This document shows positions 5,202-18,492 of a DNA stretch of 35,526 nt, piece after piece. A program made the translations under genes and the position numbers. Numbering within the stretch: the stretch's first letter is position 1; each line of letters opens with the position of its first letter. The DNA comes from Promethearchaeota archaeon (GTDB lineage Archaea; Asgardarchaeota; Hermodarchaeia; Hermodarchaeales; Hermodarchaeaceae). Under the pieces are notes generated by a model, which had not been told where the DNA came from, made no database searches, and saw only the letters and a program-made list of their open reading frames with translations. The stretch is from positions 1 to 35,526 of the forward strand of contig JBHLPR010000022.1 in assembly GCA_048939245.1 (NCBI GenBank). Direction: 5' to 3'.

Positions 5202-6671
5202 ATGAGCCCTTCCTCTCCTCCCCCACATTCACAGGATAACATTTCCGATACTCGCCGATTTGAACCACGGCAGTATCAAGAACATATCCTTCAACGAATC
5301 AAGGACAATTGGGAACACAATATTTTGGTGGAACTGGACTGCGGACTTGGGAAACGTGTTATCACCTTCAAATTGGTGACGGAATATTTTCCGGAGACGC
5401 GATTCATCATCACTGTGAATTCTTCTTCCTCGCTTCAAGAAACTGCGCAATACCTTGAAGAAGAGTATGGAGGTGTTGATGGGTTAGGGGTCCTTTCTCC
5501 CCGTATTCAGGGGCGTCGTCGTCAACAACTTCTTCATGACTCCCGAGTTGTGCTCTGTACGCCACGTGTGCTAGCTAATATCCTCAAAAAGGGAGGTTTT
5601 TCGAGCTCAGATTTTGAGGGACTCTTAATTAATGAGGTGGATACGCTTCTTCGACGGGTAGGAGATACTCGAGTTCTCATTCAACCTTGGAGTTATTTGC
5701 TAGAGTTTTTCAAAGAAAATTGGATTATCGGGCTTAGTGGAACACTCCGAGATGACCATGTAGTATTCAACCAAGCTCAACTCCAGATTCGTGACGAACT
5801 TCAAACACTTGCTAACTTTCTACCCAACGTTGAACTCATTAGCATGGATGAACTCATAGACACCGATTTGGATCAATATATCAAACACACTATCCTCGAT
5901 GTCATCCCTGTCGAAGATTCCGTCATACGCGCAACTTCGCTTGTCGTCGATGAACTAATCCAATCTACTCGCGATCAAATTTATCAAATGGTCCGAGAAA
6001 ACTCAGAGCAAAGTATCAGAGAACTCCCAGAATCCACTCGCATGCTACATTTGATGCTCCATGAACTCCCCATCCCCGAAGAGCTCGCCCAGCAATATAG
6101 TGGACTCCTCATGACCCGAAAATATCTTTACGGTATGGCCTCCAAGAGCTTTCGCCGATATCTTCATCATCCCACGATCAAATCCCAGATTGATATTAAC
6201 CGCATGATGCAAGACTGGCCAAAAGTTACCCCTAAATCTCTGAAAGCTCGAGACCTAGCATTGAAGGCGAAAAGAACTATCATCCTCTCCTCATATCTCA
6301 ATGTCGTGAGCGAAATCGAAGGACTGCTACAGGAGAAAGGCGTTCACACTTTCCAGCTTACTGGACGAACTCCAGACAAACAAGCTGTTTTAGCCGATTT
6401 CAAACACGCTAAAACTCCAGCGGCTGTGATTCTCTCGCCAGTCGGTGAACGAGATCTCGACTTGCCCGATGCTGATCTTCTTATTATCTGTGATACTGTA
6501 AATACGGTGAAGACGATTTACCAGAAAATGAAACGCAGCCGGGGTGGACGAGTTAGCTTTCTAGTCTATGCAAATACATCCGAAGTCGGAAAGTTACGAC
6601 GTCTCCTAAATAACATTATGGACCGATATCCTTGGTCCACCCGATATGGCAATACAAGCGCCTTGTACTAA
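5202..6671 (+). CDS. Hef/FANCM/Mph1-like SF2 helicase with degenerate ATPase motifs and no ERCC4 nuclease domain
   Basis: EPRQYQ, NILVELDCGLGKR (cf. LPTGLGKT), CTPR, INEVD (cf. DEAH), GLSGT, GERDLDLP, QKMKRSRGG (cf. QRxGRxGR). Confidence 0.75.
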   Translation: MSPSSPPPHSQDNISDTRRFEPRQYQEHILQRIKDNWEHNILVELDCGLGKRVITFKLVTEYFPETRFIITVNSSSSLQETAQYLEEEYGGVDGLGVLSPRIQGRRRQQLLHDSRVVLCTPRVLANILKKGGFSSSDFEGLLINEVDTLLRRVGDTRVLIQPWSYLLEFFKENWIIGLSGTLRDDHVVFNQAQLQIRDELQTLANFLPNVELISMDELIDTDLDQYIKHTILDVIPVEDSVIRATSLVVDELIQSTRDQIYQMVRENSEQSIRELPESTRMLHLMLHELPIPEELAQQYSGLLMTRKYLYGMASKSFRRYLHHPTIKSQIDINRMMQDWPKVTPKSLKARDLALKAKRTIILSSYLNVVSEIEGLLQEKGVHTFQLTGRTPDKQAVLADFKHAKTPAAVILSPVGERDLDLPDADLLIICDTVNTVKTIYQKMKRSRGGRVSFLVYANTSEVGKLRRLLNNIMDRYPWSTRYGNTSALY

Positions 6672-7981: not shown

Positions 7982-8614
7982 ATGGTCGAACAAGAAATTC
8001 AATCGAATGAAGAACAATCACGGATTCCACCGGTCTTTCCTGTGTATATCTTCGAGAGGACTTGCAAAGAGATATTCAACTACTGCCTTGATGCAGCTTT
8101 AGGTCCCTCACGACGGGAAGCCTTAGGCGTCATCCTGGGCTTTCGCCGAATCTGGAATGGAGAAAAATACATTCGGGTCACCGATTGGGCAACGGGACGT
8201 GTTGAAGCCAGTATTGCTCATGCACGATTCACACCTGAAGGCATTCTCGAATATCGACTTGCACTCCATGACCGGTACGGAAATAATCCTCATACTCCTC
8301 GGGTCGTAGGTCTTTGGCATTCACATCCGTTTGGAGGCAATCCTCACTTTTCCTCGACCGATTTGAACACATTCTTTAATACGCCCTTTTGTGCTGAAGG
8401 AAACGTGTTCTTTTTGATTGATCCAATAAGTGAGATTTTTAAAGTCTACATGCTCCGCGAACGCCTTGATGAGCCTGGTCTACAACTTGAACAAGTAAAA
8501 TGGTGTACGTATCGTCCCTCTGTTCCCCTTGGTAAACCTGAATCTCGCAAAGACTTGGTCGCACCTGAGGAGGTTGAACCCGGTAATGACGAGGAAAACG
8601 CCCACGCCGATTGA
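7982..8614 (+). CDS. JAB/MPN+ (JAMM) metalloprotease, putative Ubl maturase/deconjugase
   Basis: REALG Glu and WHSHPFGGNPHFSSTD (HxH...SxxD). The start is probably ATG 7982 (the ORF is open from 7910). Confidence 0.9.
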   Translation: MVEQEIQSNEEQSRIPPVFPVYIFERTCKEIFNYCLDAALGPSRREALGVILGFRRIWNGEKYIRVTDWATGRVEASIAHARFTPEGILEYRLALHDRYGNNPHTPRVVGLWHSHPFGGNPHFSSTDLNTFFNTPFCAEGNVFFLIDPISEIFKVYMLRERLDEPGLQLEQVKWCTYRPSVPLGKPESRKDLVAPEEVEPGNDEENAHAD

Positions 8615-9500
8615 TCTTCATTTCTTTGAGAAGGATCATCATGATCGAACTCGCCGCTGGTTAGGGGTCACCAATCTAGAAACAATTCGACAGTCTACAG
8701 TACTCATGATTGGGGCTGGCGCTGTGGGTAACGAGGTATGTAAGAATCTTGGGTTACTGGGTATTGGCAAAATTATTCTGGTCGATCCTGATAAGGTCGC
8801 GACCTCGAATTTGAATCGGTGTGTGTTCTTTCGACCTGAGGATCATGATGTGAAGTCCAAAGTCGATGCTGTGGCGGAACGACTCCCTGAACTAGCGACC
8901 GATACACGAATCGACCCTTATGCTATTCCTATTCAAGAAGCACCTGATAGTGTTTGGGATGTGGATCTCGTGCTCGTCGGGGTGGATAATCATTATGCAC
9001 GTTACTTGTTAAACGCCAAGAATCTCAGCTTAGATTCCCCTTTACCGTTGATTAATGGAGCTATGGGAAAAGATTTCGTTACCATTGATGTTCTGGCGCC
9101 ACCACACACAGCATGTCTAGTATGTTCTTGGAGTAAAGACTTTGTCGATGCTATTGTTGCGAATCAAGTGCGCACCCGCTGTGACCCTTTCTTCGTTGAT
9201 ACTCTGCCTCGCTTTCCCATGATTAGTTTCGTCACCTCGATTGTTGGCGCAGTGATGTCCTGGGAGGCGACCAAAGTGCTAGTAGGTCTACAACAATGGC
9301 GTAAAACAGGCAAATGGCAACAAGACTTGAAACCTGCTCTAGGGCGATACATCAAATACGACTTACAACGACATGAGACATCAACCGGAGCAATCCTGCC
9401 CAATCCCCGTTGCAGTGAGGCCTTCTGCCGTTCCAAACGAAAATATGCCCAATCTCTAAGAGGCTTGGAAACCCACGACCTGTCTCACCTTCCACGTTGA
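8586..9500 (+). CDS. ThiF/MoeB/UBA-family E1 activating enzyme
   Basis: GAGAVG, DPDKVATSNLNR, GVDN..AR, CLVC plus C-terminal CSEAFC Zn ligands, and a putative catalytic Cys in RTRCD. ATG 8586 overlaps the end of the JAB gene. Confidence 0.92.
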   Translation: MTRKTPTPIDLHFFEKDHHDRTRRWLGVTNLETIRQSTVLMIGAGAVGNEVCKNLGLLGIGKIILVDPDKVATSNLNRCVFFRPEDHDVKSKVDAVAERLPELATDTRIDPYAIPIQEAPDSVWDVDLVLVGVDNHYARYLLNAKNLSLDSPLPLINGAMGKDFVTIDVLAPPHTACLVCSWSKDFVDAIVANQVRTRCDPFFVDTLPRFPMISFVTSIVGAVMSWEATKVLVGLQQWRKTGKWQQDLKPALGRYIKYDLQRHETSTGAILPNPRCSEAFCRSKRKYAQSLRGLETHDLSHLPR

Positions 9501-10328
9501 ACTTAACCGAGGAGGACTAGTGTGTGGTTGTTGTCTCCAACTGACCTTGAATTCACGATTCGCCCGGATATCCATCCAATTCCCAATAATCAAGGGAAGG
9601 TGCCGATTCGTGATGCCCAGCCATCCATTGGAGCCAAACCAAGTTGGATCCATAGGCACCCACTGATTCCGAATCCATACCTCACTCCATCCATGCCGCT
9701 CCCATTTCTTCTTCGAAGCTGCGAATCCAGAGATTAACCGCGCAGGAATCTTTCTAGCTCTACAGATTGCTGCAAATAGCGCTGAGTACTCCGTACAGTC
9801 ACCAACTTGTTGTTCAATTGCGTATGCTGCCCCTCGCTCATGCTCTTGAGGAACATAACGGAGAGTTTTGGTGACTGCTCGCATAGCTGCTTTGATAAAG
9901 GGAATCAGCTTCCGATGTTTTTTGGCAAGATCACGGGCAAGATCTTTTATCAAGTGGTGATGGGACTCGATGAAATATTCGGGTTCTATATATGACTGCA
10001 GCCGGTTGGGGATTAAGCGATTTTGAATATCTGGTGATGGTTGATAGTGGATGGAGCGATTTCGAATTAAAGCGATGTATCCGCAGGTGAATGTATCATT
10101 TCCTGATAAGTGTGGACACGAGATATTCAGCCAGTTATTTCCCTCTTTATCACTAGCATGCCTACTCGTATTTGGATATGGTTTAATCTCCAACAGCTGT
10201 TGATACGGTTCAAAGGGTGGAGGAAACGCAAGCAGAATTCGAATGTTCGTTAAGGGGCTCGTAGTGGTATTCACTACTTGGGTTTGGTAGGTTAGACGAT
10301 GAGTCAGAATGGCTGAACCTGAAATCAT
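9456..10328 (-). CDS. Transglutaminase-like (papain-fold) protein with an intact Cys-His-Asp triad
   Basis: GDCTEYSALF, IPARLISG, HGWSEVW, WVPMDPTW. Confidence 0.9.
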   Translation of the reverse strand: MISGSAILTHRLTYQTQVVNTTTSPLTNIRILLAFPPPFEPYQQLLEIKPYPNTSRHASDKEGNNWLNISCPHLSGNDTFTCGYIALIRNRSIHYQPSPDIQNRLIPNRLQSYIEPEYFIESHHHLIKDLARDLAKKHRKLIPFIKAAMRAVTKTLRYVPQEHERGAAYAIEQQVGDCTEYSALFAAICRARKIPARLISGFAASKKKWERHGWSEVWIRNQWVPMDPTWFGSNGWLGITNRHLPLIIGNWMDIRANREFKVSWRQQPHTSPPRLSSTWKVRQVVGFQAS

Positions 10329-10711
10329 GGTTCCTGCCCATTTGATGTTGTTGATTCCTCGCTCTGGGCCTCGTCGTCATCAAGAATAATAACTCTACCT
10401 TCAGACGTGTGTTGTGGTTTTCGGTGAACATCACCCAAAAACACCACTTTCGAACCTCGACTAGAATTAGAGATTTCGGCTTCGCGACGTGGTCCGAGGA
10501 ATCGGCTGAAATGGGGCACATGCGTTTCAGTGCCTCGTGCAATGGCTCCTGGACAAATGTCTTCGCCTGCTTCTAACAATAAGGCACGGCAACTAGCACA
10601 AATGTAGCTCCCACAAGATGTGCATATCCACCATTGGCTCCTTGCTTCTTCGAGAGTCACTTGTGAATCGCAAGCCACACATTTGATATGCGATGCCCCG
10701 TGGACACTCAT
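10325..10711 (-). CDS. RING-like zinc-finger protein with a SIM-like acidic tail (putative E3)
   Basis: CVAC-x15-CTSC-x4-CASC-x11-CP...H; tail motifs KVVFLGD and RVIILDDDE. ATGA overlaps with the genes on both sides. Confidence 0.7.
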   Translation of the reverse strand: MSVHGASHIKCVACDSQVTLEEARSQWWICTSCGSYICASCRALLLEAGEDICPGAIARGTETHVPHFSRFLGPRREAEISNSSRGSKVVFLGDVHRKPQHTSEGRVIILDDDEAQSEESTTSNGQEP

Positions 10712-10926
10712 TCTTCTTGGTTCTCCTTCTCAGATTCTTTTCGGACATGGTGAACAGTGACTGAATAATGTGGGGAGAAATTCGGTGGCCGTTCTTCTTC
10801 AAATGGGATGTCTCGTTCTTGTAAGATCACAATCCCGTTATCCTTTGAGAGGTCTTCTGGTGAAGGTTGCTCGTTTTTATTGGGTTCCTCGGTATTTTTT
10901 TTATCATTAGGTGGCTGCTCTGCCAT
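10708..10926 (-). CDS. Small acidic, disordered protein with a SIM-like motif
   Basis: 72 aa, strong GGAGG SD, ATGA overlap with the next gene; rich in P/E/N/K with a GIVILQERD core. Confidence 0.7.
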   Translation of the reverse strand: MAEQPPNDKKNTEEPNKNEQPSPEDLSKDNGIVILQERDIPFEEERPPNFSPHYSVTVHHVRKESEKENQEE

Positions 10927-10938
10927 TAGACTCTCCTC

Positions 10939-11685
10939 CTAACGATCTTCATCATCAAGAATCCGTACAGTTGATTTTTCTTCAGGTTTATCTAGAATTT
11001 GGGGAGTTTTTCGTTGTGAAGTATCTGATGATGAATGAGGTGAAAGAATCTGGACCCGGCCCTGTCGTGGTGAGGTAGAGGCACCAGCTTGGTGTCTCGC
11101 TTCCCATAACCGGTCTAAGGTTTCGACGATATTTTTTGTGTCCTGTTCGTACCATGCCATCGCCGAACTATTGAGTCCATGATCTGATTCAAACTGGGAT
11201 GGTGGCTCTACGCGATCTGGTTTTAGCAGCACAAAGAATGGTAGATCCTCGAGAATTCGGTCAAGCTCTCCTCGAACGGAATAGCACGCATGACCTGTTC
11301 CACTGGCGGCGAGTCGAGGATGAAAAAGGGGGGTTTCAGCTGCAGGTCGGATGGTACCGATATTTTGTGGATATTCTCGTGGTAAATCAAAAACGAATCG
11401 ATGTTCATATCGGATAGCACCTTCATCCGTGAGTGAACGTGGTTGACGGACGATTCCAGGTAGATTCCGCATGGTGAATCGAATACGTTTGTATGCACCA
11501 TCACGATATCGGGCGATAATCGCAACGGTGAAATCACGATTACTCCAGGTGGTATTTTCTCGCCGTGGCGGGTCTGGATCCCATCCACGTCGCCCATAGA
11601 GATTATTGATAGTATCAAAAAATGTTTGAATCTGTGTTTCCACTCGGGCGTTGAAAAGTTCAATCGAGAATACGGGTCGTGTCAT
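10939..11685 (-). CDS. E2/UBC-fold conjugating enzyme with a disordered C-terminal tail
   Basis: FVFDLPREYP...TPLFHPRLAASGTGHAC fits the UBC pattern P-x-x-YP...FHPN...G-x-x-C, with the catalytic Cys present. ATG 11685 follows GAGGG (the ORF is open from 11700). Confidence 0.85.
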   Translation of the reverse strand: MTRPVFSIELFNARVETQIQTFFDTINNLYGRRGWDPDPPRRENTTWSNRDFTVAIIARYRDGAYKRIRFTMRNLPGIVRQPRSLTDEGAIRYEHRFVFDLPREYPQNIGTIRPAAETPLFHPRLAASGTGHACYSVRGELDRILEDLPFFVLLKPDRVEPPSQFESDHGLNSSAMAWYEQDTKNIVETLDRLWEARHQAGASTSPRQGRVQILSPHSSSDTSQRKTPQILDKPEEKSTVRILDDEDR

Positions 11686-11730
11686 GGTGTAATCCCTCAC
11701 AGATGCTTTGCCCTCCTGATTGGGCTCTAT

Positions 11731-12057
11731 TCATTGTTTCTGTCCAACTTCGGGAACGACATCAAGGAGGAAGAATTCGTCGTCAGTGATTTTCGGCTCA
11801 AGCTCACCAAAGGCCACACCGGGACTTAACCGTGTGGGCTCTGGAGCTTTGCGAATCAAGACGAACTCAGCACGTTGATCGCCGATTTTCGCTTTCGCCC
11901 AATCGTCAATACTGACACCTTCATCGCGGGCTTGTGTAACGAGGGTACGGATAACCTCCTCGACTCGAGTTTCCTCATCAATGCCAATCCGGAATTCCTT
12001 TTGGCGTGGCTCAACGTCGACAATGATTGAGCGCCAAAAACCTTCTTCGTTACTCAT
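11731..12057 (-). CDS. Ubiquitin-like (beta-grasp) protein ending EVG-QKQ
   Basis: Strand-strand-helix pattern SIIVDV / EFRIGID / ETRVEEVIRTL, then FVLIRK, LSP..AFGEL, ITDDEFFLLDV and a near-terminal Gly. First gene before the E2; AGGTGA SD. Confidence 0.72.
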   Translation of the reverse strand: MSNEEGFWRSIIVDVEPRQKEFRIGIDEETRVEEVIRTLVTQARDEGVSIDDWAKAKIGDQRAEFVLIRKAPEPTRLSPGVAFGELEPKITDDEFFLLDVVPEVGQKQ

Positions 12058-12299
12058 GTCTGTTCACCTACAAGGTGAGGGTTATATCATCCACATTAAC
12101 TTTATGTGAACCTTAGGCGGCTTCTTATCCTTTTTAACGGTTGAAAGAGAATAGGTCGGCTTAATATCGCAGATAAATGGCGCCGACTCCTTCGTTGGAG
12201 TGAAAGTTTAAGAGTCACGGACTAGTCTGACTTAGTAGACTTGGGCAAGAGTGAAAATGGCATCTGCTCAGGATAACCCGCGGGAGCTCATCTGATAGA
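12058..12299. promoter_or_regulatory. Divergent promoter region between the Ubl operon and the SMC operon
   Basis: 242-bp gap between head-to-head genes. TATA-like elements near 12082-12087 (-) and GAAAGTTTAAG at 12202-12212 (+); short inverted repeats at 12064-12078 and 12092-12108. Confidence 0.55.
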
Positions 12300-15194
12300 A
12301 TGACCACTAGGCAAGAGACAACCCTTTCAACCTCACCGGTCGTGTTTCGCAGTATCCGCCTAGTCAATTTTGTCATTCATCGCGACACCACTATTGAACT
12401 CGATGAGTCACCCGTCGTTCTCATCACCGGATCAAATGGAAGTGGTAAAACTCTCATTCTTGATGCGCTTCTGCTAGCTATTGGAGTTGAATCTAGGCGG
12501 GCTCAACGCCAACGAAATTCCGCCTTCATTGGACGATTTGGCAAATATGCCGAAGTCGAATTAGAACTTAATAACTTCCAGATCAACGGGTGCCGTGTCT
12601 TACGTAGCCCTGATACCGCTTTATCCAAACTTCTGGACAAAGATGTGGTTTCGATTCGCCTTCGGATTCATAATACCAACAGGGTATCCTATTGGCTGAA
12701 TGGGCAACGATCGGTAAATGGACACCAAATTGCGCGAAAGGATATCCGAAAGCTGTTTCAAGCGGCTGGGTTGTTCGGGGATTCTCCACTAGCGGTTACA
12801 GAAGCTGAAACATTAGATCATTTTGCTTCTCAATCACCTCGAAGAAAATTCGAAACGCTTCTCAACGAAACTGGATTAAGGAGTTGGATGGAAAAACTCG
12901 AAGAAGCCCGACTATTAGTTTTACAGGCAAAAGCCAATGTTAAACCTCTTGAATACCGCATTCGCCATGAACAACAACGGCAACAAGTTTTGAAAGCAGC
13001 CTATGAAGCCTTTCAGCAAAAACAGCAACTCCAACAACGACAAAAAGACCTCGATGTTGAAGCTGCTTGGGCAGAAGTCTCCTACCGCGAAGAACTCGCA
13101 ACTCAACTCCAATCACAGATTACGACATTAGACAATCAACTAACAGTTGAGAATGGCAAACTGGACAAACTCAATTCCCGTCAGGCTAGTCTACAAGATA
13201 AGTTGGATGCAAATCTGGCCAAACGGGAAAAACTCTTGGCAACAATGAACGAGCTCCGCGACCAGCAAATGCAATCTCAAGGACATCGTCAAGGATTAGA
13301 AAATGAACTTAACGCACTCAAAGCACGGACAAAACGATATACTAGACGTCAGAAACCTGCTAATACAAAAATCGACAGCATTCAGAAAGAATTAGACGAA
13401 TTCGTGAGTGAGCGAGATAAACTCGATGATCAACTGTCACAGGTTCGTCAAGATGTAGCATCAGCTGAAGAAGGACTCTTCTCGCAGCCCCAACGGTACC
13501 CACACTTTGAAGAAAAAATCCTTCGCGCCTGTCTACGTTTTCGTTCTGAACTAGATAAAATTGCCCTCTCCGATTCAGTCATTGGTCCACTTTTTACGCT
13601 TATCCGGATGAAACCTGAATATACCCAACATGAAACTGCGGTGAAACTCGCCTTAGGTCGCTACACCTACTCGTTTATCGCACTTAACCGCGAAGTTTTC
13701 GTCGAAGCCAAGAACCTTTATGATCGGCTCTGGCCTCACGAAAAACCTGACTTGGTGGTCGCCCGTACAAATCCCACCACTGCAATCACGCGAGACCGGC
13801 CGGCTGTTTCATCACCTGTAATTGGGTGGGCTGCAGATCTCATCGAAGGCGATCTGTACGCGGTGAGTTTTCTTAACCGTGTAGTAAATACTGCCATCGC
13901 AGAAGAAGGTGCTGATCCAAATACGTTAGTAGATGCCACTCAACAGCTCAATGGTAACATCATCACTAGTGAAGGTTCAAGCCATTATCTCCGAATAGGC
14001 GCATTTACTCGTCCTCCCCGTCCAGTAACTGTCAGCTTAGATATCACACTCCATGAACTGAGTCTAACACACGACGTTACTGACGGACGTCGCCAGCTTC
14101 GCGAACTTCGGGAGCAGGAAGCTCATTTCATGCGGGATCGGATGCGCATTAATGCAGAGATAAGCCAACTTCGATCTATCCTTCAAGATTTGCAGGCAGC
14201 CCATACCATTCAGCTATCTAGTGAAGAACGAACTGCTTTAATCACGGATGCAGACCGTCGCATTACAGAACTTCAACAGCAGATTCTTGAATTAGAAACT
14301 GGCTGTGATGCACTCAGCCAAGATTATCAAGACTGTAACTCGGATTTATCGCCACTCAATTCCAGACAACAAGAAATCACAGGACAACTCCACACTCTTA
14401 GCTCACGGCAATCTCGTCGTCAAGCAGAAATTGACCGTTTATCTGATGAGCTCAAACAACGAGAAGATGAATACGAACATCTCATGAAACAAACCAAGGA
14501 CTTCCGAAAAGCTGCAACCAAGCTTGCGGAACGCCCTGCGGTGGTTCGAGAACCTACTGCGATCCGTGATGAGCAAATCCAAATCCAGGCTATGATTGAT
14601 ACTATCACAGCAACGGCAGAAGATCGTCACGCTTTTGAAGAACAAGAAAAGGTGGTGTCTCAACTCCAAGAATATCTCACTCAACGACAGCTTCATCTTG
14701 AAAATCTCATGACGGACGTTGATCGTCGATTACTGGAGTGGCGGCGACAACTCGAACAAACAGTCGAAACTTTGAACCAACGAATGAATCAGCTGCTTAG
14801 CCACTTCCTCAAACAAGTCAAATTACTTATTCGCTTTCCTGACGAACCCAGTCGGGCAGAACTCCACCTCCAATTGGCTATCAATCGTAGAGGTGAATGG
14901 CGAACCTATCAGGAAATGTCGGGCGGGGAACGTGTGCTGGCTACTCAAACCTTTATTTTAGCACTGCATACCCTTGCAAAGAGTCCTCTTCACGTGATTG
15001 ATGAATTCACTCAACGTCTAGATGAAGCAAGCCGCGCAGCAATTCTTAGTGTCGTTCAGCGAGCCCTTGATTTGACCCAGCAAGAATCACTAATCAATCC
15101 CCAATTTCTATTAATGGCTCCATCCACAGTAGGGCTTCAGATTCCAGAGACAATGCACCACGTGGTCCTCCTTAAAGGGCAGGTGAAGAAATGA
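12300..15194 (+). CDS. SMC-family ATPase of Smc5/6 type
   Basis: IRLVNFVIH, Walker A GSNGSGKT, two coiled coils around a hinge (VIGPLFTLI...AVKLALGRYTYSFI), signature MSGGER, SPLHVIDEFTQRLD, QFLLMAP. Confidence 0.88.
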   Translation: MTTRQETTLSTSPVVFRSIRLVNFVIHRDTTIELDESPVVLITGSNGSGKTLILDALLLAIGVESRRAQRQRNSAFIGRFGKYAEVELELNNFQINGCRVLRSPDTALSKLLDKDVVSIRLRIHNTNRVSYWLNGQRSVNGHQIARKDIRKLFQAAGLFGDSPLAVTEAETLDHFASQSPRRKFETLLNETGLRSWMEKLEEARLLVLQAKANVKPLEYRIRHEQQRQQVLKAAYEAFQQKQQLQQRQKDLDVEAAWAEVSYREELATQLQSQITTLDNQLTVENGKLDKLNSRQASLQDKLDANLAKREKLLATMNELRDQQMQSQGHRQGLENELNALKARTKRYTRRQKPANTKIDSIQKELDEFVSERDKLDDQLSQVRQDVASAEEGLFSQPQRYPHFEEKILRACLRFRSELDKIALSDSVIGPLFTLIRMKPEYTQHETAVKLALGRYTYSFIALNREVFVEAKNLYDRLWPHEKPDLVVARTNPTTAITRDRPAVSSPVIGWAADLIEGDLYAVSFLNRVVNTAIAEEGADPNTLVDATQQLNGNIITSEGSSHYLRIGAFTRPPRPVTVSLDITLHELSLTHDVTDGRRQLRELREQEAHFMRDRMRINAEISQLRSILQDLQAAHTIQLSSEERTALITDADRRITELQQQILELETGCDALSQDYQDCNSDLSPLNSRQQEITGQLHTLSSRQSRRQAEIDRLSDELKQREDEYEHLMKQTKDFRKAATKLAERPAVVREPTAIRDEQIQIQAMIDTITATAEDRHAFEEQEKVVSQLQEYLTQRQLHLENLMTDVDRRLLEWRRQLEQTVETLNQRMNQLLSHFLKQVKLLIRFPDEPSRAELHLQLAINRRGEWRTYQEMSGGERVLATQTFILALHTLAKSPLHVIDEFTQRLDEASRAAILSVVQRALDLTQQESLINPQFLLMAPSTVGLQIPETMHHVVLLKGQVKK

Positions 15195-15988
15195 TGATTT
15201 CCAATGATACTTCTACTTTCCTCCGTGCCTTTCCGCGACGTAAAGCCTGGTACGACACATTCCAGCATAACTACAAACGGAATCAGCTAACCAAACATGG
15301 CACAAAAACCGTGGTCATCACCCTCTGGAATCTCACGAAAAAATACGAAGTAGCTCTCAAACAACATGAGGTATTTCCCGTTAAAGAAGCGGAAATAGAC
15401 CGCGAGGAAGTCACTGATGCATATCGCGTACTCGAAACACCTTGGGAACGAAACCTCGATGGTCGCTTCTATTACACACTTGCTTCAATGCAACACCATC
15501 GCGATTCTCAATTGGCTACTCCTGAAATTGCCCCTGAAGAATGGATTTCCCAATTTGCCAATGAGGTTAAACGTCGGGCTACTCCTCTTCTGTTTCTAAT
15601 CAATCCTGATCATACTATTCCACCGCTCGATTTACCTCCTACAGATTCTCCTGTAGCAATGGCTGAACCACCTTCCCCCGACGATCAGCAGGCAATGCGC
15701 CGACATCGAATACCTTTCAAAGACATTTCGTTCGATGATCTTGATGCCCGGCGAGCCTCAATCGTGAAGCGCCTCCAAGGAAAACGGTACAACTACATAG
15801 CATTATCAGAACTCTTAACAAACTGGGAATTGGATCTATTAAGCCAACTGATTCGAGATGATATACTCCCGGCTACCTTCGAAAAAACTGTAGTTCACTT
15901 CCGGAAATCATCACCATCTCGAAAAGCGGATTCAATATATGCAGCTGTTGCTATTGCTGCAAAAAACCATGAGGAGGTTACACATTGA
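15191..15988 (+). CDS. Hypothetical protein, putative kleisin (Nse4/ScpA-like)
   Basis: Overlaps both the smc stop and the KITE start. Helical N-terminus, Pro-rich linker (PPLDLPPTDSP..EPPSP) and a C-terminal region compatible with a winged helix. The kleisin call is positional only. Confidence 0.45.
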   Translation: MMISNDTSTFLRAFPRRKAWYDTFQHNYKRNQLTKHGTKTVVITLWNLTKKYEVALKQHEVFPVKEAEIDREEVTDAYRVLETPWERNLDGRFYYTLASMQHHRDSQLATPEIAPEEWISQFANEVKRRATPLLFLINPDHTIPPLDLPPTDSPVAMAEPPSPDDQQAMRRHRIPFKDISFDDLDARRASIVKRLQGKRYNYIALSELLTNWELDLLSQLIRDDILPATFEKTVVHFRKSSPSRKADSIYAAVAIAAKNHEEVTH

Positions 15989-16632
15989 CGACATCCAATC
16001 CCCCCTCTTCTGAATCCGCCAAACCCACCGATACGCCAAAAGACGATGAATTCGAGCAACGCCATCTCCTCGGTCAATTATTCGCCGCACTCACCGCACG
16101 ATTTCGTAATGAAGAAGGGCAACTCAGCATCGGAGTCAAACGGCAAAATCTTCTAGAAGCTCTGCATATCAACAAATCAGGGCTGACTCGTCTACTGGAT
16201 TTACTCCGGCAACAGATTTCCCCCCTTGGATTGGAATTAGTTGAATATCGATTGGGACGTGATACCCTCTATTGTATCCGAACTATCTATGGCGTTCCAG
16301 GAGAACTCTCAGATCCCGAATATGCTGTACTCGGAGTTATCATCTCCACGGTGGAACGTGCTAGTAAACATCGCCGACCGCGACACGTCTCGACGAAAGA
16401 TATCGAAACTATTCTCGTTGCCCGTGGGCGCCTTTCCCGTTATCAATTGGATAAAATCCTAAGGCGTCTGACGGAATTGGGATATATTAACCGATCTACT
16501 CGACGAGTGGCTTATGGTCCACGACTCGAACTTGAATTTGATTCGGAACGTCGCGAAGCCATCGCCAACGCTGCCACCCTCTATCTCGCTGGTGCCGTTT
16601 CTCAAAGGGAGGACACAAAGAATGAAACTTGA
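15985..16632 (+). CDS. KITE tandem winged-helix protein (Nse1/Nse3-MAGE/ScpB-like)
   Basis: LLDLLRQQISPLGLELVE (wH-A), LSDPEYAVLGVII, LDKILRRLTELGYI...YGPRLELE (cf. MAGE/Nse3 WGPRAxxE). Confidence 0.75.
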   Translation: MTTSNPPSSESAKPTDTPKDDEFEQRHLLGQLFAALTARFRNEEGQLSIGVKRQNLLEALHINKSGLTRLLDLLRQQISPLGLELVEYRLGRDTLYCIRTIYGVPGELSDPEYAVLGVIISTVERASKHRRPRHVSTKDIETILVARGRLSRYQLDKILRRLTELGYINRSTRRVAYGPRLELEFDSERREAIANAATLYLAGAVSQREDTKNET

Positions 16633-17083
16633 TCTTTCTACAGTCGGGATTAGTTGTGTGGCGTGTGGTACACGAACAACACTCGAAGAGGCAATTCAAA
16701 ATGGGTGGCATCAATGTCTCCGTTGTCAATTTTTCATTGATCCCCATTGTCTTCAAATCGTCCAAAACACCATGGGTGGTACATGTCCGTCATTTAGTCA
16801 AGGCGTTTCTCGCCATACTCTACAGCTATCTGACATTCCTTCAGAACAAATCCTCATCTTTGTAAAAGATCAATATCAGAAAGGTCGGGTCGGGGTCTTA
16901 ATTGACACTCTGTTTTATTCTAAGGATCTAAGGTTAGAAAAACCTCACCATTCGAGTCGGCTCCACCCCGAACCTGAAGAAGCCCTTACACGAGAAGAAA
17001 TTTGGCAACGCTACGGTCTTGTTTTAGTTCAGCGAACTCAGGGCAAATGGAAAACTTGGGAAAAAATTGGTACTACAGGCTAA
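16622..17083 (+). CDS. RING-like zinc-finger protein (Nse1 RING-like), paralog of 10325-10711
   Basis: CVAC...GWHQCLRC...IDPHC...CPS...H. ATG 16622 follows a GGAGG SD and overlaps the KITE stop. Confidence 0.7.
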   Translation: MKLDLSTVGISCVACGTRTTLEEAIQNGWHQCLRCQFFIDPHCLQIVQNTMGGTCPSFSQGVSRHTLQLSDIPSEQILIFVKDQYQKGRVGVLIDTLFYSKDLRLEKPHHSSRLHPEPEEALTREEIWQRYGLVLVQRTQGKWKTWEKIGTTG

Positions 17084-17504
17084 AATCCCTACAAAGCGTA
17101 AACTATTTACCACTCACTCCATTACAACTTTTCAACGAATTTACATTGCGTGCTATATGGAGTTATTGGGTGTGGTTGACGCAAAATCTCCTAGTTGGGT
17201 AAAGCAAGTTGTTCGACGATGGAAACAATTCTATCAAGAAATCCAATATGCTGATGGGCAACTGGATATGTCAAATCCCCTGAGCCTTATCTTCCAAAGA
17301 GAAATTCTTCCACAAGAAGCAGCAGCGCAAACCGCTAAAGGCGTTTCCCCATCACCTGAACCGCTTCCTTCGAAGAAAAAAGAGTCGGTAAAATCTCAAC
17401 CACAGAAAGCTCCGTCAAAAACAAAACATAAACAGAATAAAGGGCGGTTTTTCTCCAAACTAAAGGAAATCCAATGTCTCCTCAACCCTTACCCCTTTTT
17501 CTGA
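17067..17504 (+). CDS. Hypothetical protein, last gene of the SMC operon
   Basis: Overlaps the previous stop; helical N-terminal half and a Lys/Pro/Ser-rich basic tail. Confidence 0.6.
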   Translation: MVLQAKIPTKRKLFTTHSITTFQRIYIACYMELLGVVDAKSPSWVKQVVRRWKQFYQEIQYADGQLDMSNPLSLIFQREILPQEAAAQTAKGVSPSPEPLPSKKKESVKSQPQKAPSKTKHKQNKGRFFSKLKEIQCLLNPYPFF

Positions 17505-17505
17505 G

Positions 17506-18492
17506 CTAGTCTGATTCCTTCGCTCCTACTCCAAGTTCGGTGAGGATCTTGTCAACGATCTCCTTAGCTTGTTTTTTCGTGGCTGCTGATTCCGTAGTTG
17601 GTTCATCGCGAACATCGGCAGGAAGCTGGGGGAGTCCAGCAAGTGTTCGGACAATTCCGGAGATGGCGTGTTTAGCGACTGACACTTCGGATCCTCCGGA
17701 TAGTAATACGACTAATCGACCTGAACAGACTTCTTCTGCGGCCTGCATAAGAATCTCCGTCATAGCTGGAAAGGCCGCTAATGACAGATTAAATCCACCA
17801 TAATCCAATGCGTGTGCATCGTGTCCCATATTCCATAGAATCATCTCGGGGCGAATCTGACGGGCCAAGGGGTGCACCAATCGGCGAACTGCTGTGACAA
17901 AGGAGTCATCACTACTGCTGCTGGGAAAGGGAACGTCTATATGGCGGTGTGTGACCAAATCGAAGCTCTCTCGAAAACTCGCTTCAAAATTCAGATGGTA
18001 TACTCCTTCATCGTCACCAAGCGTATCACGAGTTCCATCTCCTGGATGGGGATCTGTATCAACAATGAAGAACCGTTTCGCTCCATGTGTTTGCTGCAAA
18101 TGGCGCACTAATAACGCTGTGTTATTGTAATAGCAGAATCCCCAAAAGGAATCACGGCTTGCATGGTGCCCAGCACAACCAGTAAAAGCAAACGCATTCG
18201 CAGCGTCACCTACCCACACAGCTTCACCAGCACGAATAGCTGAACCACTGGATACCAATGAAGCAGGATCATACCCTGAATCTTTTACCCTTCTGATGTG
18301 ATCCGAAGTATGGACCTTTAGAAGCAACTTTTCACTTACTTTCGGGGCTTCTTCTACTTTGGTCTGGGTAGCATCGAGAGTTCCAGTTTCTCGAAGATAA
18401 TCAAAGGCTGGTTGTACTCGGCCCGCCAATACTGGGTAGCCTTCAACCGCCATTAGAGGGTGGTAAAGAATAAGGGTTGGTTTCTTTCTCAT
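17506..18492 (-). CDS. Zn-dependent histone deacetylase family protein
   Basis: GHHA, GFCYYNN, DTDPHPGDGT, GHDAH..D, and LSGGS (normally EGGY). Confidence 0.92.
   Translation of the reverse strand: MRKKPTLILYHPLMAVEGYPVLAGRVQPAFDYLRETGTLDATQTKVEEAPKVSEKLLLKVHTSDHIRRVKDSGYDPASLVSSGSAIRAGEAVWVGDAANAFAFTGCAGHHASRDSFWGFCYYNNTALLVRHLQQTHGAKRFFIVDTDPHPGDGTRDTLGDDEGVYHLNFEASFRESFDLVTHRHIDVPFPSSSSDDSFVTAVRRLVHPLARQIRPEMILWNMGHDAHALDYGGFNLSLAAFPAMTEILMQAAEEVCSGRLVVLLSGGSEVSVAKHAISGIVRTLAGLPQLPADVRDEPTTESAATKKQAKEIVDKILTELGVGAKESD

What the first reader, a model, noticed from the sequence alone, without database searches (positions are those of the whole stretch)
7982..17504. Smc5/6-like complex genomically coupled to an apparently complete ubiquitin/SUMO-like conjugation system
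Seen: 12 contiguous, mostly overlapping genes, JAB>E1> <TGase<RING<small protein<E2<Ubl | SMC>kleisin?>KITE>RING>orf. The Ubl and SMC operons are head-to-head, and each contains one copy of a paralogous RING-like gene. Established: eukaryotic Smc5/6 is the SMC complex with built-in ligases (Nse1 RING, Nse2 SP-RING SUMO E3) and acts in replication/repair and in restricting extrachromosomal DNA. Prokaryotic Smc-ScpAB, MukBEF and Wadjet are not known to me to have a linked E1-E2-E3 cascade. Inference: an archaeal SMC-coupled Ubl-conjugation system for genome maintenance or anti-MGE defence, possibly related to the ancestor of Smc5/6-SUMO/ubiquitin signalling.
Basis: partly seen in the sequence, partly recalled or inferred. 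Interest (0 to 1): 0.95.

Follow-up and report, generated by a model that had tools for sequence, protein, structure and literature searches.

The report
Asgard Smc5/6-like complex with Ubl cascade
This Asgard archaeon keeps a second, Smc5/6-type chromosome-clamp complex with its own RING-like zinc protein next to a private ubiquitin-like tagging kit. The pairing survives gene reshuffling in other Asgard families, so the eukaryotic tie between Smc5/6 and ubiquitin/SUMO ligases may predate eukaryotes.

Summary
Window 7982-17083 holds JAB>E1> <TGase<RING1<small<E2<Ubl | SMC>'kleisin'>KITE>RING2>. JAB, ThiF-type E1, TGase and SMC reach Pfam thresholds. The Pfam-invisible E2 folds as a UBC enzyme with a conserved HPR...C motif. 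The Ubl has an invariant C-terminal Gly followed by 0-18 variable residues. The KITE model superposes best on chains from Nse1-Nse3-Nse4 and Smc5/6 entries (Z up to 10.9). The SMC falls in the archaeal Smc5/6-related clade, not with canonical Smc or Rad50; the genome has a separate Smc-ScpAB operon and separate canonical E2 genes.

Three gene arrangements in different Asgard families keep the linkage, including one nine-gene co-directional string. In 301 Asgard genomes, 28 of the 31 with the E2 also have a strong RING2 match; the other three are fragmented assemblies. SMC-kleisin-KITE-RING2 is the wider core.

Unverified: the kleisin (assigned by position only), E3 activity of the RING-like proteins, the substrates and the biological role. 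Archaeal Smc5/6-related complexes are already published. I found no paper describing the RING subunit or the Ubl coupling. This scan noted the same system before in at least 11 other genomes.

The parts
7982..8614 (+). JAB/JAMM metalloprotease (candidate Ubl-processing or deconjugating enzyme)
   Evidence: Pfam Prok-JAB E 2.7e-6, over the cut-off. The Glu and the HSHP-x7-S-x2-D motif are conserved in 15/15 orthologs across families. Start set at M25 of the 7910 ORF from ortholog alignment.
8586..9500 (+). ThiF/MoeB-type E1-like adenylating enzyme
   Evidence: Pfam ThiF E 2.4e-35. Conserved: GAGAVGNE, SNLNRC, Zn motifs C-x2-C and C-x4-C, and a conserved Cys in RCDPFF. Overlaps the JAB gene by 29 nt.
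9456..10328 (-). Transglutaminase-core (papain-like Cys-His-Asp) enzyme, short form
   Evidence: Pfam Transglut_core E 1.2e-20. The C, H and D motifs GDCTE / ERHxW / DPT are conserved. Most relatives have a 530-560 aa form.
10325..10711 (-). RING1: RING-like binuclear zinc finger with an acidic, motif-bearing tail
   Evidence: Pattern C-x2-C-x15-C-x2-C-x4-C-x2-C-x11-CP-x10-H. Best Pfam family zf-UDP (CesA RING): E 0.0014 here, 2.4e-6 in the best member, 9/19 members. PDB 1weo E 0.043.
10708..10926 (-). Small acidic protein with a conserved C-terminal motif (I/V)xIL-ERD-hPF-E-x-PPN-x-SP
   Evidence: Orthologs always follow the E2 gene in three Asgard families. Alignment. No family match.
10939..11685 (-). 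Divergent E2 (UBC fold) with a disordered C-terminal tail
   Evidence: AF2 model pLDDT 74. The Foldseek PDB top 50 are all E2s, best E 2.1e-4. VIA Z 8.5 over 139 aligned residues, all 50 rows E2 or E2-like UBC-fold chains. The HPR-x8-10-C motif is invariant in 13/13. No Pfam or PDB sequence match.
11731..12057 (-). Ubiquitin-like modifier precursor (matures at ...VPEVG; 3-residue tail QKQ here)
   Evidence: 80-98% identity within the family. An invariant terminal Gly is followed by 0-18 variable residues; the protein ends exactly at VG in families f5 and f27. All ten best Atlas feature hits that carry a Pfam family share the ubiquitin-fold clan. No Pfam or PDB sequence match.
12058..12299 (.). 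Divergent intergenic region between the Ubl and SMC operons
   Evidence: Read directly. A+T-rich TATA-like stretches are present. No promoter test was possible for archaea.
12300..15194 (+). Smc5/6-related SMC ATPase (964 aa)
   Evidence: Pfam SMC_N 2.6e-22. Walker A, signature SGGE and Walker B DE are invariant. PDB profile hits: Pyrococcus Smc 2.8e-17, then Smc6 3.8e-11. Trees and AU test.
15191..15988 (+). Candidate kleisin (position only)
   Evidence: Always encoded between the SMC and KITE genes, or next to them, with a 4-nt overlap. Conserved N- and C-terminal blocks flank a variable Pro-rich linker. No match in Pfam, PDB or by hhalign to ScpA.
15985..16632 (+). KITE subunit (tandem winged helix, Nse1/Nse3-like)
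   Evidence: AF2 pLDDT 81.5. Foldseek top hits are ScpB, Nse1, Nse3/MAGE, MukE and JetB. Best full-length VIA matches are chains of Nse1-Nse3-Nse4 and Smc5/6 entries, Z 9.2-10.9, rmsd ~3 A over ~159 residues.
16622..17083 (+). RING2: RING-like zinc protein, conserved fourth gene of the SMC module
   Evidence: Paralogous to RING1 at the N-terminus. It directly follows the KITE gene in every family that has it, including the inverted arrangements. Found in 63/301 Asgard genomes. Conserved C-terminal block TREEIWxRYGLVLVKRxxGKFxTWEKI.
17067..17504 (+). orfX, doubtful member
   Evidence: Orthologs in only 5 related loci at 41-55% identity. Absent outside the family.

Best explanation
The locus encodes a second, Smc5/6-related SMC complex. 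It consists of an SMC (presumably a homodimer), a divergent kleisin, an Nse1/Nse3-like kite and a dedicated RING-like subunit, RING2. This complex is functionally coupled to a private ubiquitin-like conjugation pathway.

Proposed mechanism:
1. The Ubl precursor is trimmed to its C-terminal Gly by JAB or by the papain-fold TGase.
2. The ThiF-type E1 adenylates it.
3. It passes to the catalytic Cys of the divergent E2.
4. RING2, docked on the kite/kleisin module, delivers it to complex subunits or to DNA-bound proteins near the loaded complex. RING1, paired with the TGase, may deliver it to other targets.
5. JAB reverses the mark.

The system is a resident chromosomal function (replication, repair or chromosome handling), not a mobile defence island.

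Shown here: the gene set, the folds and motifs of E1, E2, JAB, TGase, KITE and SMC, the Ubl's terminal Gly, the conserved linkage and the clade placement.

Inferred: the kleisin identity, E3 activity, RING2 as a subunit, the substrates and the biological role.
For: Linkage:
- The identical locus occurs in 18/18 same-family genomes.
- In family f27 the genes form one string, SMC>KLE>KITE>RING2>JAB>E1>Ubl>E2>small.
- In f5, f10 and two metagenomic lineages, JAB>E1 directly follow RING2.
- E2 and RING2 lie within 6 kb on one contig in 19 genomes.

Phyletic nesting:
- The E2 is in 31/301 Asgard genomes.
- 28 of those 31 also have a strong RING2 match (E 1e-28 or better). The other three are fragmented assemblies.
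- RING2 is found in 63/301.

Parts:
- E2 UBC fold and HPR..C motif.
- Ubl terminal Gly with variable tails and ubiquitin-clan features.
- Intact JAMM, E1 and Cys-His-Asp motifs.
- KITE best matched by chains of Nse1/3/4 and Smc5/6 entries.

SMC clade. Published tables list a Hermodarchaeum genome with SMC5/6-related SMCs and an Nse1/3-related kite.

Resident, not mobile: same flanking genes across the family, single copy, near-universal within families, and no nuclease or specific PADLOC match. The genome has its own canonical Smc-ScpA-ScpB and UQ_con E2 genes elsewhere.
Against:
- The kleisin has no detectable similarity to any kleisin.
- The RING assignment rests on ligand spacing and sub-threshold Pfam and PDB matches. 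No structure of it was predicted.
- Half of the RING2-bearing genomes (families f4, f10, f24, f25) lack this E2 and Ubl, so the SMC module works without them.
- In G004 the Ubl-E2 cassette is on a different contig from the SMC-RING2-JAB-E1 string.
- The trees lack eukaryotic Smc5 and Smc1-4, and the rows were drawn from the query's own best hits.
- The AU-tested group was named after seeing the tree.
Confidence: 0.6

Rival explanations
1. An anti-mobile-element defence system: an SMC-type DNA sensor (like Wadjet or Lamassu, or like Smc5/6 restricting episomes) that signals through Ubl conjugation, as bacterial Bil and CBASS Cap2/Cap3 systems do.
For: - The E1 and JAB give weak hits to the PADLOC Cap2 E1-E2, BilD and JAB models, and the SMC to LmuB/JetC.
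- NCBIfam gives a weak hit to the 6A-MBL cap2_3 model.
- Eukaryotic Smc5/6 restricts viral and extrachromosomal DNA (stated in doi 10.1101/2024.01.07.573240).
- The Ubl cassette is patchy among families that have the SMC module.
Against: - The PADLOC hits are superfamily-level only. There are no JetA, JetB or JetD matches and no nuclease or other effector in the locus.
- The locus sits in the same syntenic position, flanked by housekeeping genes, in all family members, and is single copy.
- It is near-universal within families (18/18, 26/29, 10/11), unlike typical defence islands.
Confidence: 0.2
2. The E1 and Ubl are a sulfur-carrier pair (ThiS/MoaD-ThiF/MoeB-like) for cofactor or tRNA thiolation that merely neighbours an SMC operon.
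For: The best NCBIfam matches of the E1 are ThiF/MoeB adenylyltransferases, all far below their cut-offs. The Ubl ends in Gly.
Against: - An E2 with a conserved catalytic Cys, two RING-like proteins and a JAMM protease travel with it.
- The Ubl ends in a single VG, often with a tail that needs proteolysis.
- No sulfurtransferase or cofactor-biosynthesis gene is in the cluster.
- The linkage to SMC survives three rearrangements.
Confidence: 0.05
3. Two independent systems kept adjacent only by inherited synteny, with no functional coupling.
For: Within the window's own family the wider neighbourhood (helicase-like gene, HAD, malic enzyme, HDAC) is also conserved. Conservation inside that family alone therefore proves little.
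Against: - Outside the family the flanks differ, but the SMC and Ubl genes stay together in new orders and orientations.
- The f27 loci show gapless co-directional strings.
- The E2's distribution is nested within RING2's.
Confidence: 0.08

Closest known systems
Eukaryotic Smc5/6 holocomplex (Smc5-Smc6, kleisin Nse4, kites Nse1/Nse3, Nse1 variant RING, Nse2 SP-RING SUMO ligase)
   Same: - The SMC is in the Smc5/6-related clade.
- The kite's two winged helices superpose best on chains of Nse1/3/4 and Smc5/6 entries.
- A RING-like protein is tied to the kite.
- There is a link to Ubl conjugation.
- The first four zinc ligands are Cys, as in the C4HC3 Nse1 vRING (PMC8750328).
   Different: - One SMC gene and one kite gene, so presumably homodimers.
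- The RING is a separate gene, not fused to the kite.
- No SP-RING or Nse5/6 was seen in the locus.
- The complex comes with its own E1, E2, Ubl and JAB instead of using a general cellular pathway.
- The Ubl is not detectably ubiquitin or SUMO by sequence.
Archaeal SMC5/6-related operons of TACK and Asgard archaea (van Hooff et al., bioRxiv 10.1101/2024.01.07.573240; Yoshinaga and Inagaki, PMC8665677)
   Same: Same kind of SMC with an Nse1/3-like kite. Their Supplementary Table 3 lists a Hermodarchaeum genome with SMC5/6-related SMCs and one Nse1/3-related kite.
   Different: - They list no Nse4-related kleisin for that genome.
- They state that the RING is absent from archaeal kites and is a eukaryotic innovation.
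- Neither the text nor the supplements mention an adjacent RING gene or an E1/E2/Ubl/JAB linkage.
Canonical Asgard / Caldiarchaeum ubiquitin operons (Ub, E1, UQ_con E2, small RING, Rpn11-like)
   Same: The same component logic: Ubl, E1, E2, RING and JAMM.
   Different: - The window's E2 and Ubl are invisible to Pfam.
- The genome carries canonical UQ_con E2 genes on another contig.
- This cassette adds a TGase and a conserved small protein.
- It is tied to an SMC complex.
Bacterial Ubl-conjugation defence systems (Bil; CBASS Cap2/Cap3) and SMC-type defence (Wadjet JetABCD, Lamassu)
   Same: E1 and JAB domains, and SMC-like ATPases with kleisin and kite partners. JetB is among the kite fold matches.
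   Different: Only weak superfamily-level PADLOC hits. No JetD or other effector. Resident syntenic locus.

Membership tests
Smc5/6-type SMC complex | SMC ATPase that groups with Smc5/Smc6 rather than with canonical Smc or Rad50 | tested here: met
   FastTree on 64 rows and IQ-TREE LG+C20 PMSF on 31 rows give the same result. Rooted on Rad50, canonical SMC branches first. The window family lies in an archaeal clade (SH-aLRT 95) that is sister to eukaryotic Smc6 plus a small group (SH-aLRT 94). Forcing it with canonical SMC gives p-AU 0.014. Caveat: no Smc5 or Smc1-4 rows were included.
Smc5/6-type SMC complex | Heterodimer of two SMC paralogues (Smc5 + Smc6) | tested here: not met
   There is one SMC gene of this clade in the locus. 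The only other SMC-type genes in the genome are canonical Smc and Rad50-like.
Smc5/6-type SMC complex | Nse4-type kleisin bridging the heads | tested here: inconclusive
   A 265-aa gene sits in the kleisin position. It has no match in Pfam, in PDB profiles, to Asgard ScpA by hhalign, or to any annotated homolog.
Smc5/6-type SMC complex | Nse1/Nse3-type tandem winged-helix kite | tested here: met
   Model pLDDT 81.5. VIA: 7dg2_A Z 10.9 / 3.2 A / 159 residues; 5hvq_C 10.1; 7tve_C 9.9; 7ymd_B 9.7; 7qcd_D 9.5. Full-length ScpB matches have rmsd 5.8-14 A. No profile similarity to ScpB. I inferred the chain identities within those entries from their lengths and did not verify them.
Smc5/6-type SMC complex | RING domain carried by the Nse1 kite | tested here: not met
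   The kite has no RING. A RING-like protein is instead encoded by the next gene, overlapping by 11 nt here, and stays adjacent in all arrangements.
Smc5/6-type SMC complex | Nse2 SP-RING SUMO ligase and Nse5/6 | tested here: inconclusive
   No zf-MIZ, zf-Nse or other such Pfam match among the locus proteins. The rest of the genome was not searched.
E2 ubiquitin-conjugating enzymes (UBC fold) | UBC fold: alpha1, four-strand meander, active-site loop, alpha2-4 | tested here: met
   Secondary-structure order. All 50 best Foldseek matches are E2s. All 50 VIA rows are E2 or E2-like UBC-fold chains, Z up to 8.5.
E2 ubiquitin-conjugating enzymes (UBC fold) | HPN motif followed by the catalytic Cys | tested here: met
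   HPR(L/I/V)-x8-10-C is invariant in 13/13 orthologs from four Asgard families.
E2 ubiquitin-conjugating enzymes (UBC fold) | Match to Pfam UQ_con | tested here: not met
   No Pfam hit at E 0.1. No precomputed Pfam domain on any of 68 homologs.
Ubiquitin-like modifiers | C-terminal Gly exposed directly or after removal of a variable tail | tested here: met
   An invariant ...VG is followed by 0-18 unconserved residues. The stop codon falls right after Gly in f5, f27 and one Hermod genome.
Ubiquitin-like modifiers | Beta-grasp fold | tested here: inconclusive
   Only language-model features are available. All ten best Atlas hits that carry a Pfam family are ubiquitin-clan families, scores 0.80-0.90. 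The protein was not folded.
E1-like ThiF/MoeB adenylyltransferases | Rossmann GxGxxG, Arg/Asn/Asp adenylation residues, Zn-binding Cys pairs | tested here: met
   Pfam ThiF 2.4e-35. Motifs conserved in 16/16.
JAMM/JAB metalloproteases | E ... HxH-x7-S-x2-D | tested here: met
   Pfam Prok-JAB over the cut-off. Motif conserved in 15/15.
RING-type E3 ligases | Eight zinc ligands with cross-brace spacing; recognised RING family match | tested here: inconclusive
   Ligand spacing equals that of the CesA RING. zf-UDP matches 9/19 members, best E 2.4e-6; the window copy scores 19.1 bits against a 27.1-bit cut-off. Cys-to-His and Cys-to-Asp swaps occur at ligand positions. No structure was predicted.
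RING-type E3 ligases | Binds E2~Ubl and stimulates transfer | not testable with these tools
   This needs biochemistry.
Canonical prokaryotic Smc-ScpAB | ScpA kleisin and ScpB kite | tested here: not met
   hhalign probabilities are below 1%. The genome has a separate Smc-ScpA-ScpB operon on contig C32.
Known anti-phage systems (Wadjet, Lamassu, Bil, CBASS Cap2/3) | Specific PADLOC models for all core genes, including an effector or nuclease | tested here: not met
   Only generic JAB, E1 and SMC-superfamily hits. Nothing for the kleisin, kite, E2, Ubl or RINGs.

The most novel reading that the evidence does not exclude
The kite gene plus the adjacent RING2 gene are the unfused precursor of eukaryotic Nse1 (kite-RING). 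On this reading the Smc5/6 complex was already wired to a ubiquitin-like E1-E2-E3 cascade in the Asgard ancestors of eukaryotes, and the ligase-bearing nature of Smc5/6 is an archaeal inheritance, not a eukaryotic innovation.
Probability: 0.3. Interest if true: 0.9.

Novelty: new variant of a known kind. Interest (0 to 1): 0.8.

Why it matters
Smc5/6 is the least understood eukaryotic SMC complex, and the only one with built-in ubiquitin and SUMO ligases. Why these are coupled, and when the coupling arose, are open questions.

A compact archaeal version offers a tractable system for asking what Ubl conjugation does for an SMC motor. It has one SMC, one kite, a separate RING-like subunit and a private E1/E2/Ubl/JAB set.

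It also bears on a published statement that the Nse1 RING is a eukaryotic innovation. In addition, it reveals E2 and Ubl families that current domain libraries miss; every homolog found is annotated 'hypothetical protein'.

Tried and rejected
- **Complex prediction, KITE + RING2:** no answer (score 0.00, controls not run). This is neither for nor against binding.
- **PDB profile searches** with E2, Ubl, kleisin and KITE alignments gave nothing meaningful.
- **hhalign** of the kleisin against Asgard ScpA, and of the KITE against ScpB, gave nothing.
- **Pfam on 15 diverse kleisin orthologs** at E 10 gave only scattered noise. The kleisin profile search returned only unannotated proteins.
- **IQ-TREE mixture model on 64 x 961** did not finish in two 5-minute runs. 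I replaced it with FastTree and a 31-row run.
- **MAGE Pfam search of the own genome** gave nothing, but its control also rang nowhere.
- **Planctomycetota lead from earlier notes:** two bacterial-looking contigs carry Ubl and E2 relatives, but no SMC, E1 or JAB within 10 kb. One high-GC contig carries SMC-kleisin-kite without Ubl genes. I therefore did not reproduce a bacterial coupling. These are only three loci.
- **Helicase-like and HDAC neighbours** were rejected as core members. They are syntenic only within the window's family.

Full report
**1. Observation**

The window is contig C96 of a 2.5-Mb, 88%-complete MAG. ORF listing and ortholog alignments give these genes:

| Gene | Coordinates | Strand |
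|---|---|---|
| JAB | 7982-8614 | + |
| E1 | 8586-9500 | + |
| TGase | 9456-10328 | - |
| RING1 | 10325-10711 | - |
| small protein | 10708-10926 | - |
| E2 | 10939-11685 | - |
| Ubl | 11731-12057 | - |
| spacer (242 bp) | 12058-12299 | . |
| SMC | 12300-15194 | + |
| candidate kleisin | 15191-15988 | + |
| KITE | 15985-16632 | + |
| RING2 | 16622-17083 | + |
| orfX (poorly conserved) | 17067-17504 | + |

Most neighbouring genes overlap by 4-29 nt. Pfam supports Prok-JAB, ThiF, Transglut_core and SMC_N. The other seven proteins have no significant Pfam or NCBIfam family.

**2. Identity of the unannotated parts**

*E2.*
- The alignment shows an invariant HPR(L/I/V)-x8-10-C motif.
- The AlphaFold model has pLDDT 74 and the secondary-structure order of a UBC fold.
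- All 50 best Foldseek matches are E2 enzymes. All 50 VIA rows are E2 or E2-like UBC-fold chains. Best values: Foldseek E 2.1e-4; VIA Z 8.5 over 139 residues.
- The Z values alone are middling. The uniform hit list together with the motif makes the call.

*Ubl.*
- It is the most conserved protein of the locus (80-98% identity).
- It ends in an invariant ...VG. This is followed by 0-18 unconserved residues in the window's family and by the stop codon in two other families.
- The ten best Atlas feature hits that carry a Pfam family all belong to ubiquitin-fold families. This is a lead, not a fold test.

*KITE.*
- The model has pLDDT 81.5 and is a tandem winged helix.
- The Foldseek list is dominated by ScpB, Nse1, Nse3/MAGE, MukE and JetB.
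- The matches that superpose both domains well are chains of Nse1-Nse3-Nse4 and Smc5/6 entries: Z 9.2-10.9, rmsd about 3 A, about 159 residues.
- I inferred from chain lengths that most of these chains are Nse1. I did not verify this.

*RING1 and RING2.*
- They share an N-terminal C-x2-C-x15-C-x2-C-x4-(C/D)-x2-C-x11-CP-x9-10-H module.
- The closest family is the cellulose-synthase RING (zf-UDP; best member E 2.4e-6; 1weo E 0.043), below threshold for the window copies.

*Candidate kleisin.* It has no detectable relative of known function. It is assigned by position and by its two-block-plus-linker layout only.

*Enzyme motifs.* The catalytic motifs of JAB, E1 and TGase are conserved across families.

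**3. The SMC**

It has intact Walker A, signature and Walker B motifs.

A full HMMER search of 1.8 billion representatives found a broad family of 930-1010-aa relatives (E 1e-205 to 1e-117). Named eukaryotic Smc6 proteins appear among the best 150 hits.

Two trees, rooted on the genome's Rad50, agree: FastTree on 64 rows and IQ-TREE LG+C20 PMSF on 31 rows.
- Canonical SMC branches first.
- An Smc2/3-like group branches next.
- Then comes a clade (SH-aLRT 94) that unites eukaryotic Smc6 (plus a small group) with an archaeal clade (SH-aLRT 95) holding the window family.

Holding the archaeal clade together with canonical SMC costs 11.3 log-likelihood units (p-AU 0.014).

Limits: Smc5 and Smc1-4 were not available, the rows came from the query's own hit list, and the tested group was named after the tree was seen.

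The genome also has a canonical Smc-ScpA-ScpB operon on C26/C32 and canonical UQ_con E2 genes on C54. The window system is therefore an extra one.

**4. Is the coupling real?**

Seventeen GTDB species genomes contained close SMC relatives, and 18/18 same-family genomes in the phylum sample have the E2. Wherever the contig is long enough, the gene order is identical.

Housekeeping flanks are conserved there too, so that family alone proves little. The decisive evidence comes from other families:

| Lineage | Arrangement |
|---|---|
| f1 (window's family) | JAB>E1> <TG<RING1<small<E2<Ubl \| SMC>kleisin>KITE>RING2> |
| f27 | SMC>kleisin>KITE>RING2>JAB>E1>Ubl>E2>small in one string; RING1>TGase about 6.5 kb downstream |
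| f5 | SMC>...>RING2>JAB>E1 on one contig; Ubl>E2>small>TGase on another |
| f10 and two metagenomic lineages | JAB>E1 directly follow RING2 |
| f4, f24 and other metagenomic loci | SMC, kleisin, KITE and RING2 only, sometimes inverted (<RING2<KITE \| SMC>kleisin>) |

Counts in a sample of 301 Asgard genomes:
- RING2 occurs in 63, in families f1, f4, f5, f10, f24, f25, f27 and f29.
- This E2 occurs in 31, in families f1, f5, f27 and f29.
- 28 of the 31 E2 genomes also have a strong RING2 match. The other three are fragmented assemblies.
- E2 and RING2 lie within 6 kb on one contig in 19 genomes.

Related genomes are not independent, so these are about four lineage-level observations. Even so, linkage kept through three rearrangements is the classical signature of functional coupling.

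The KITE-RING2 gene pair is the most constant adjacency.

**5. Mechanism**

The best reading is an Smc5/6-related SMC-kleisin-kite complex with a dedicated RING-like subunit, served in some lineages by a private Ubl pathway.
- JAB or the TGase matures the Ubl.
- The E1 activates it.
- The E2 carries it.
- RING2, and RING1 paired with the TGase, direct it.
- JAB reverses the mark.

Kolesar et al. report the kleisin Nse4 as a substrate of the Nse1 RING in fission yeast (PMC8750328). This makes complex subunits plausible targets here, but that is inference.

The defence reading is weaker.
- Only superfamily-level PADLOC hits were found.
- No effector is present.
- The locus is fixed and syntenic.
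- It is near-universal within families.

A sulfur-carrier reading is unlikely given the E2, the RING proteins and JAB.

**6. What is known and what is new**

Already published: SMC5/6-related SMCs in archaea (PMC8665677), and SMC5/6-related SMC / Nse4-like kleisin / Nse1/3-like kite operons in TACK and Asgard archaea (doi 10.1101/2024.01.07.573240).

That preprint's Supplementary Table 3 lists a Hermodarchaeum genome with two SMC5/6-related SMCs, one Nse1/3-related kite and no Nse4-related kleisin. This matches what I see.

The same preprint says the RING is absent from archaeal kites and calls it a eukaryotic innovation. Neither its text nor its supplements mention a neighbouring RING gene or E1/E2/Ubl/JAB genes.

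Four further literature searches found no description of the coupling. The library is limited, so this is not proof of novelty.

Earlier agents of this scan reached similar conclusions on at least 11 other genomes. I treated those notes as leads only.

Their claim of a Planctomycetota counterpart was not reproduced in the three bacterial-looking loci I examined.

**7. Verdict**

The system is a new variant of a known kind: an Smc5/6-like complex with its own RING-like subunit and a private Ubl cascade.

Open points: the kleisin identity, the RING fold and E3 activity, the substrates and the biological role.

Noticed in passing
window 10325-11065; L044, L046, L048, L043: The disordered tails of the E2 and RING1, and the small protein, carry recurring (R/K)-(V/I)-x-(I/V)-L-(D/E) strands. 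The small protein has a motif conserved across three Asgard families: hxIL-ERD-hPF-E-x-PPN-x-SP. These could be SIM-like Ubl-binding or docking motifs.
   Followed up: partly
window 5202-6671 and 17506-18492: A ResIII/Helicase_C-like gene upstream and a histone-deacetylase-family gene downstream are syntenic with the locus in the window's family. They are absent from the f27 and other out-of-family loci, so they are probably not core parts.
   Followed up: partly
window 9456-10328; L012, L013, L015-L018, L023, L026: The TGase comes in a short form (about 290 aa; here and in L011, L019, L020, L028) and a long form (530-560 aa) with extra N- and C-terminal regions.
   Followed up: no
L058:785-2446, L059:16394-18022, L039 (about 18.7 kb): In family f4 genomes that lack the E1, E2 and Ubl, a TGase homolog (E 1e-30 to 1e-37) still lies 7-9 kb from the SMC-kleisin-KITE-RING2 module.
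   Followed up: no
L064:9501-10441, L065:9549-10492: Bacterial-looking contigs (with CheW, LGT and signal peptidase neighbours) encode a Ubl homolog ending ...AVVG fused in frame to the E2's N-terminal helix. A second ORF with the E2 core follows. This could be a polyprotein, a split gene or a frameshift. No SMC, E1 or JAB lies within 10 kb. Two BRCT proteins follow in L065.
   Followed up: partly
L037:9062-9889; L040:829-1227: An RPA-like OB-fold protein with a zinc ribbon follows the E1 in one lineage. A PDCD5-like dsDNA_bind gene precedes the SMC in another. Both are DNA-related neighbours.
   Followed up: no
window 16622-16831; L044, L046, L048: Zinc-ligand substitutions in RING2: the Hermod copies have Asp at ligand 5 (FFIDP instead of FICP), and the f27 copies have His at ligand 2 (C-x2-H).
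   Followed up: partly
G000 contig C54 (L035, L036): The same genome has two canonical UQ_con E2 genes about 3 kb apart. This is presumably the usual Asgard ubiquitin system, separate from the window cassette.
   Followed up: no
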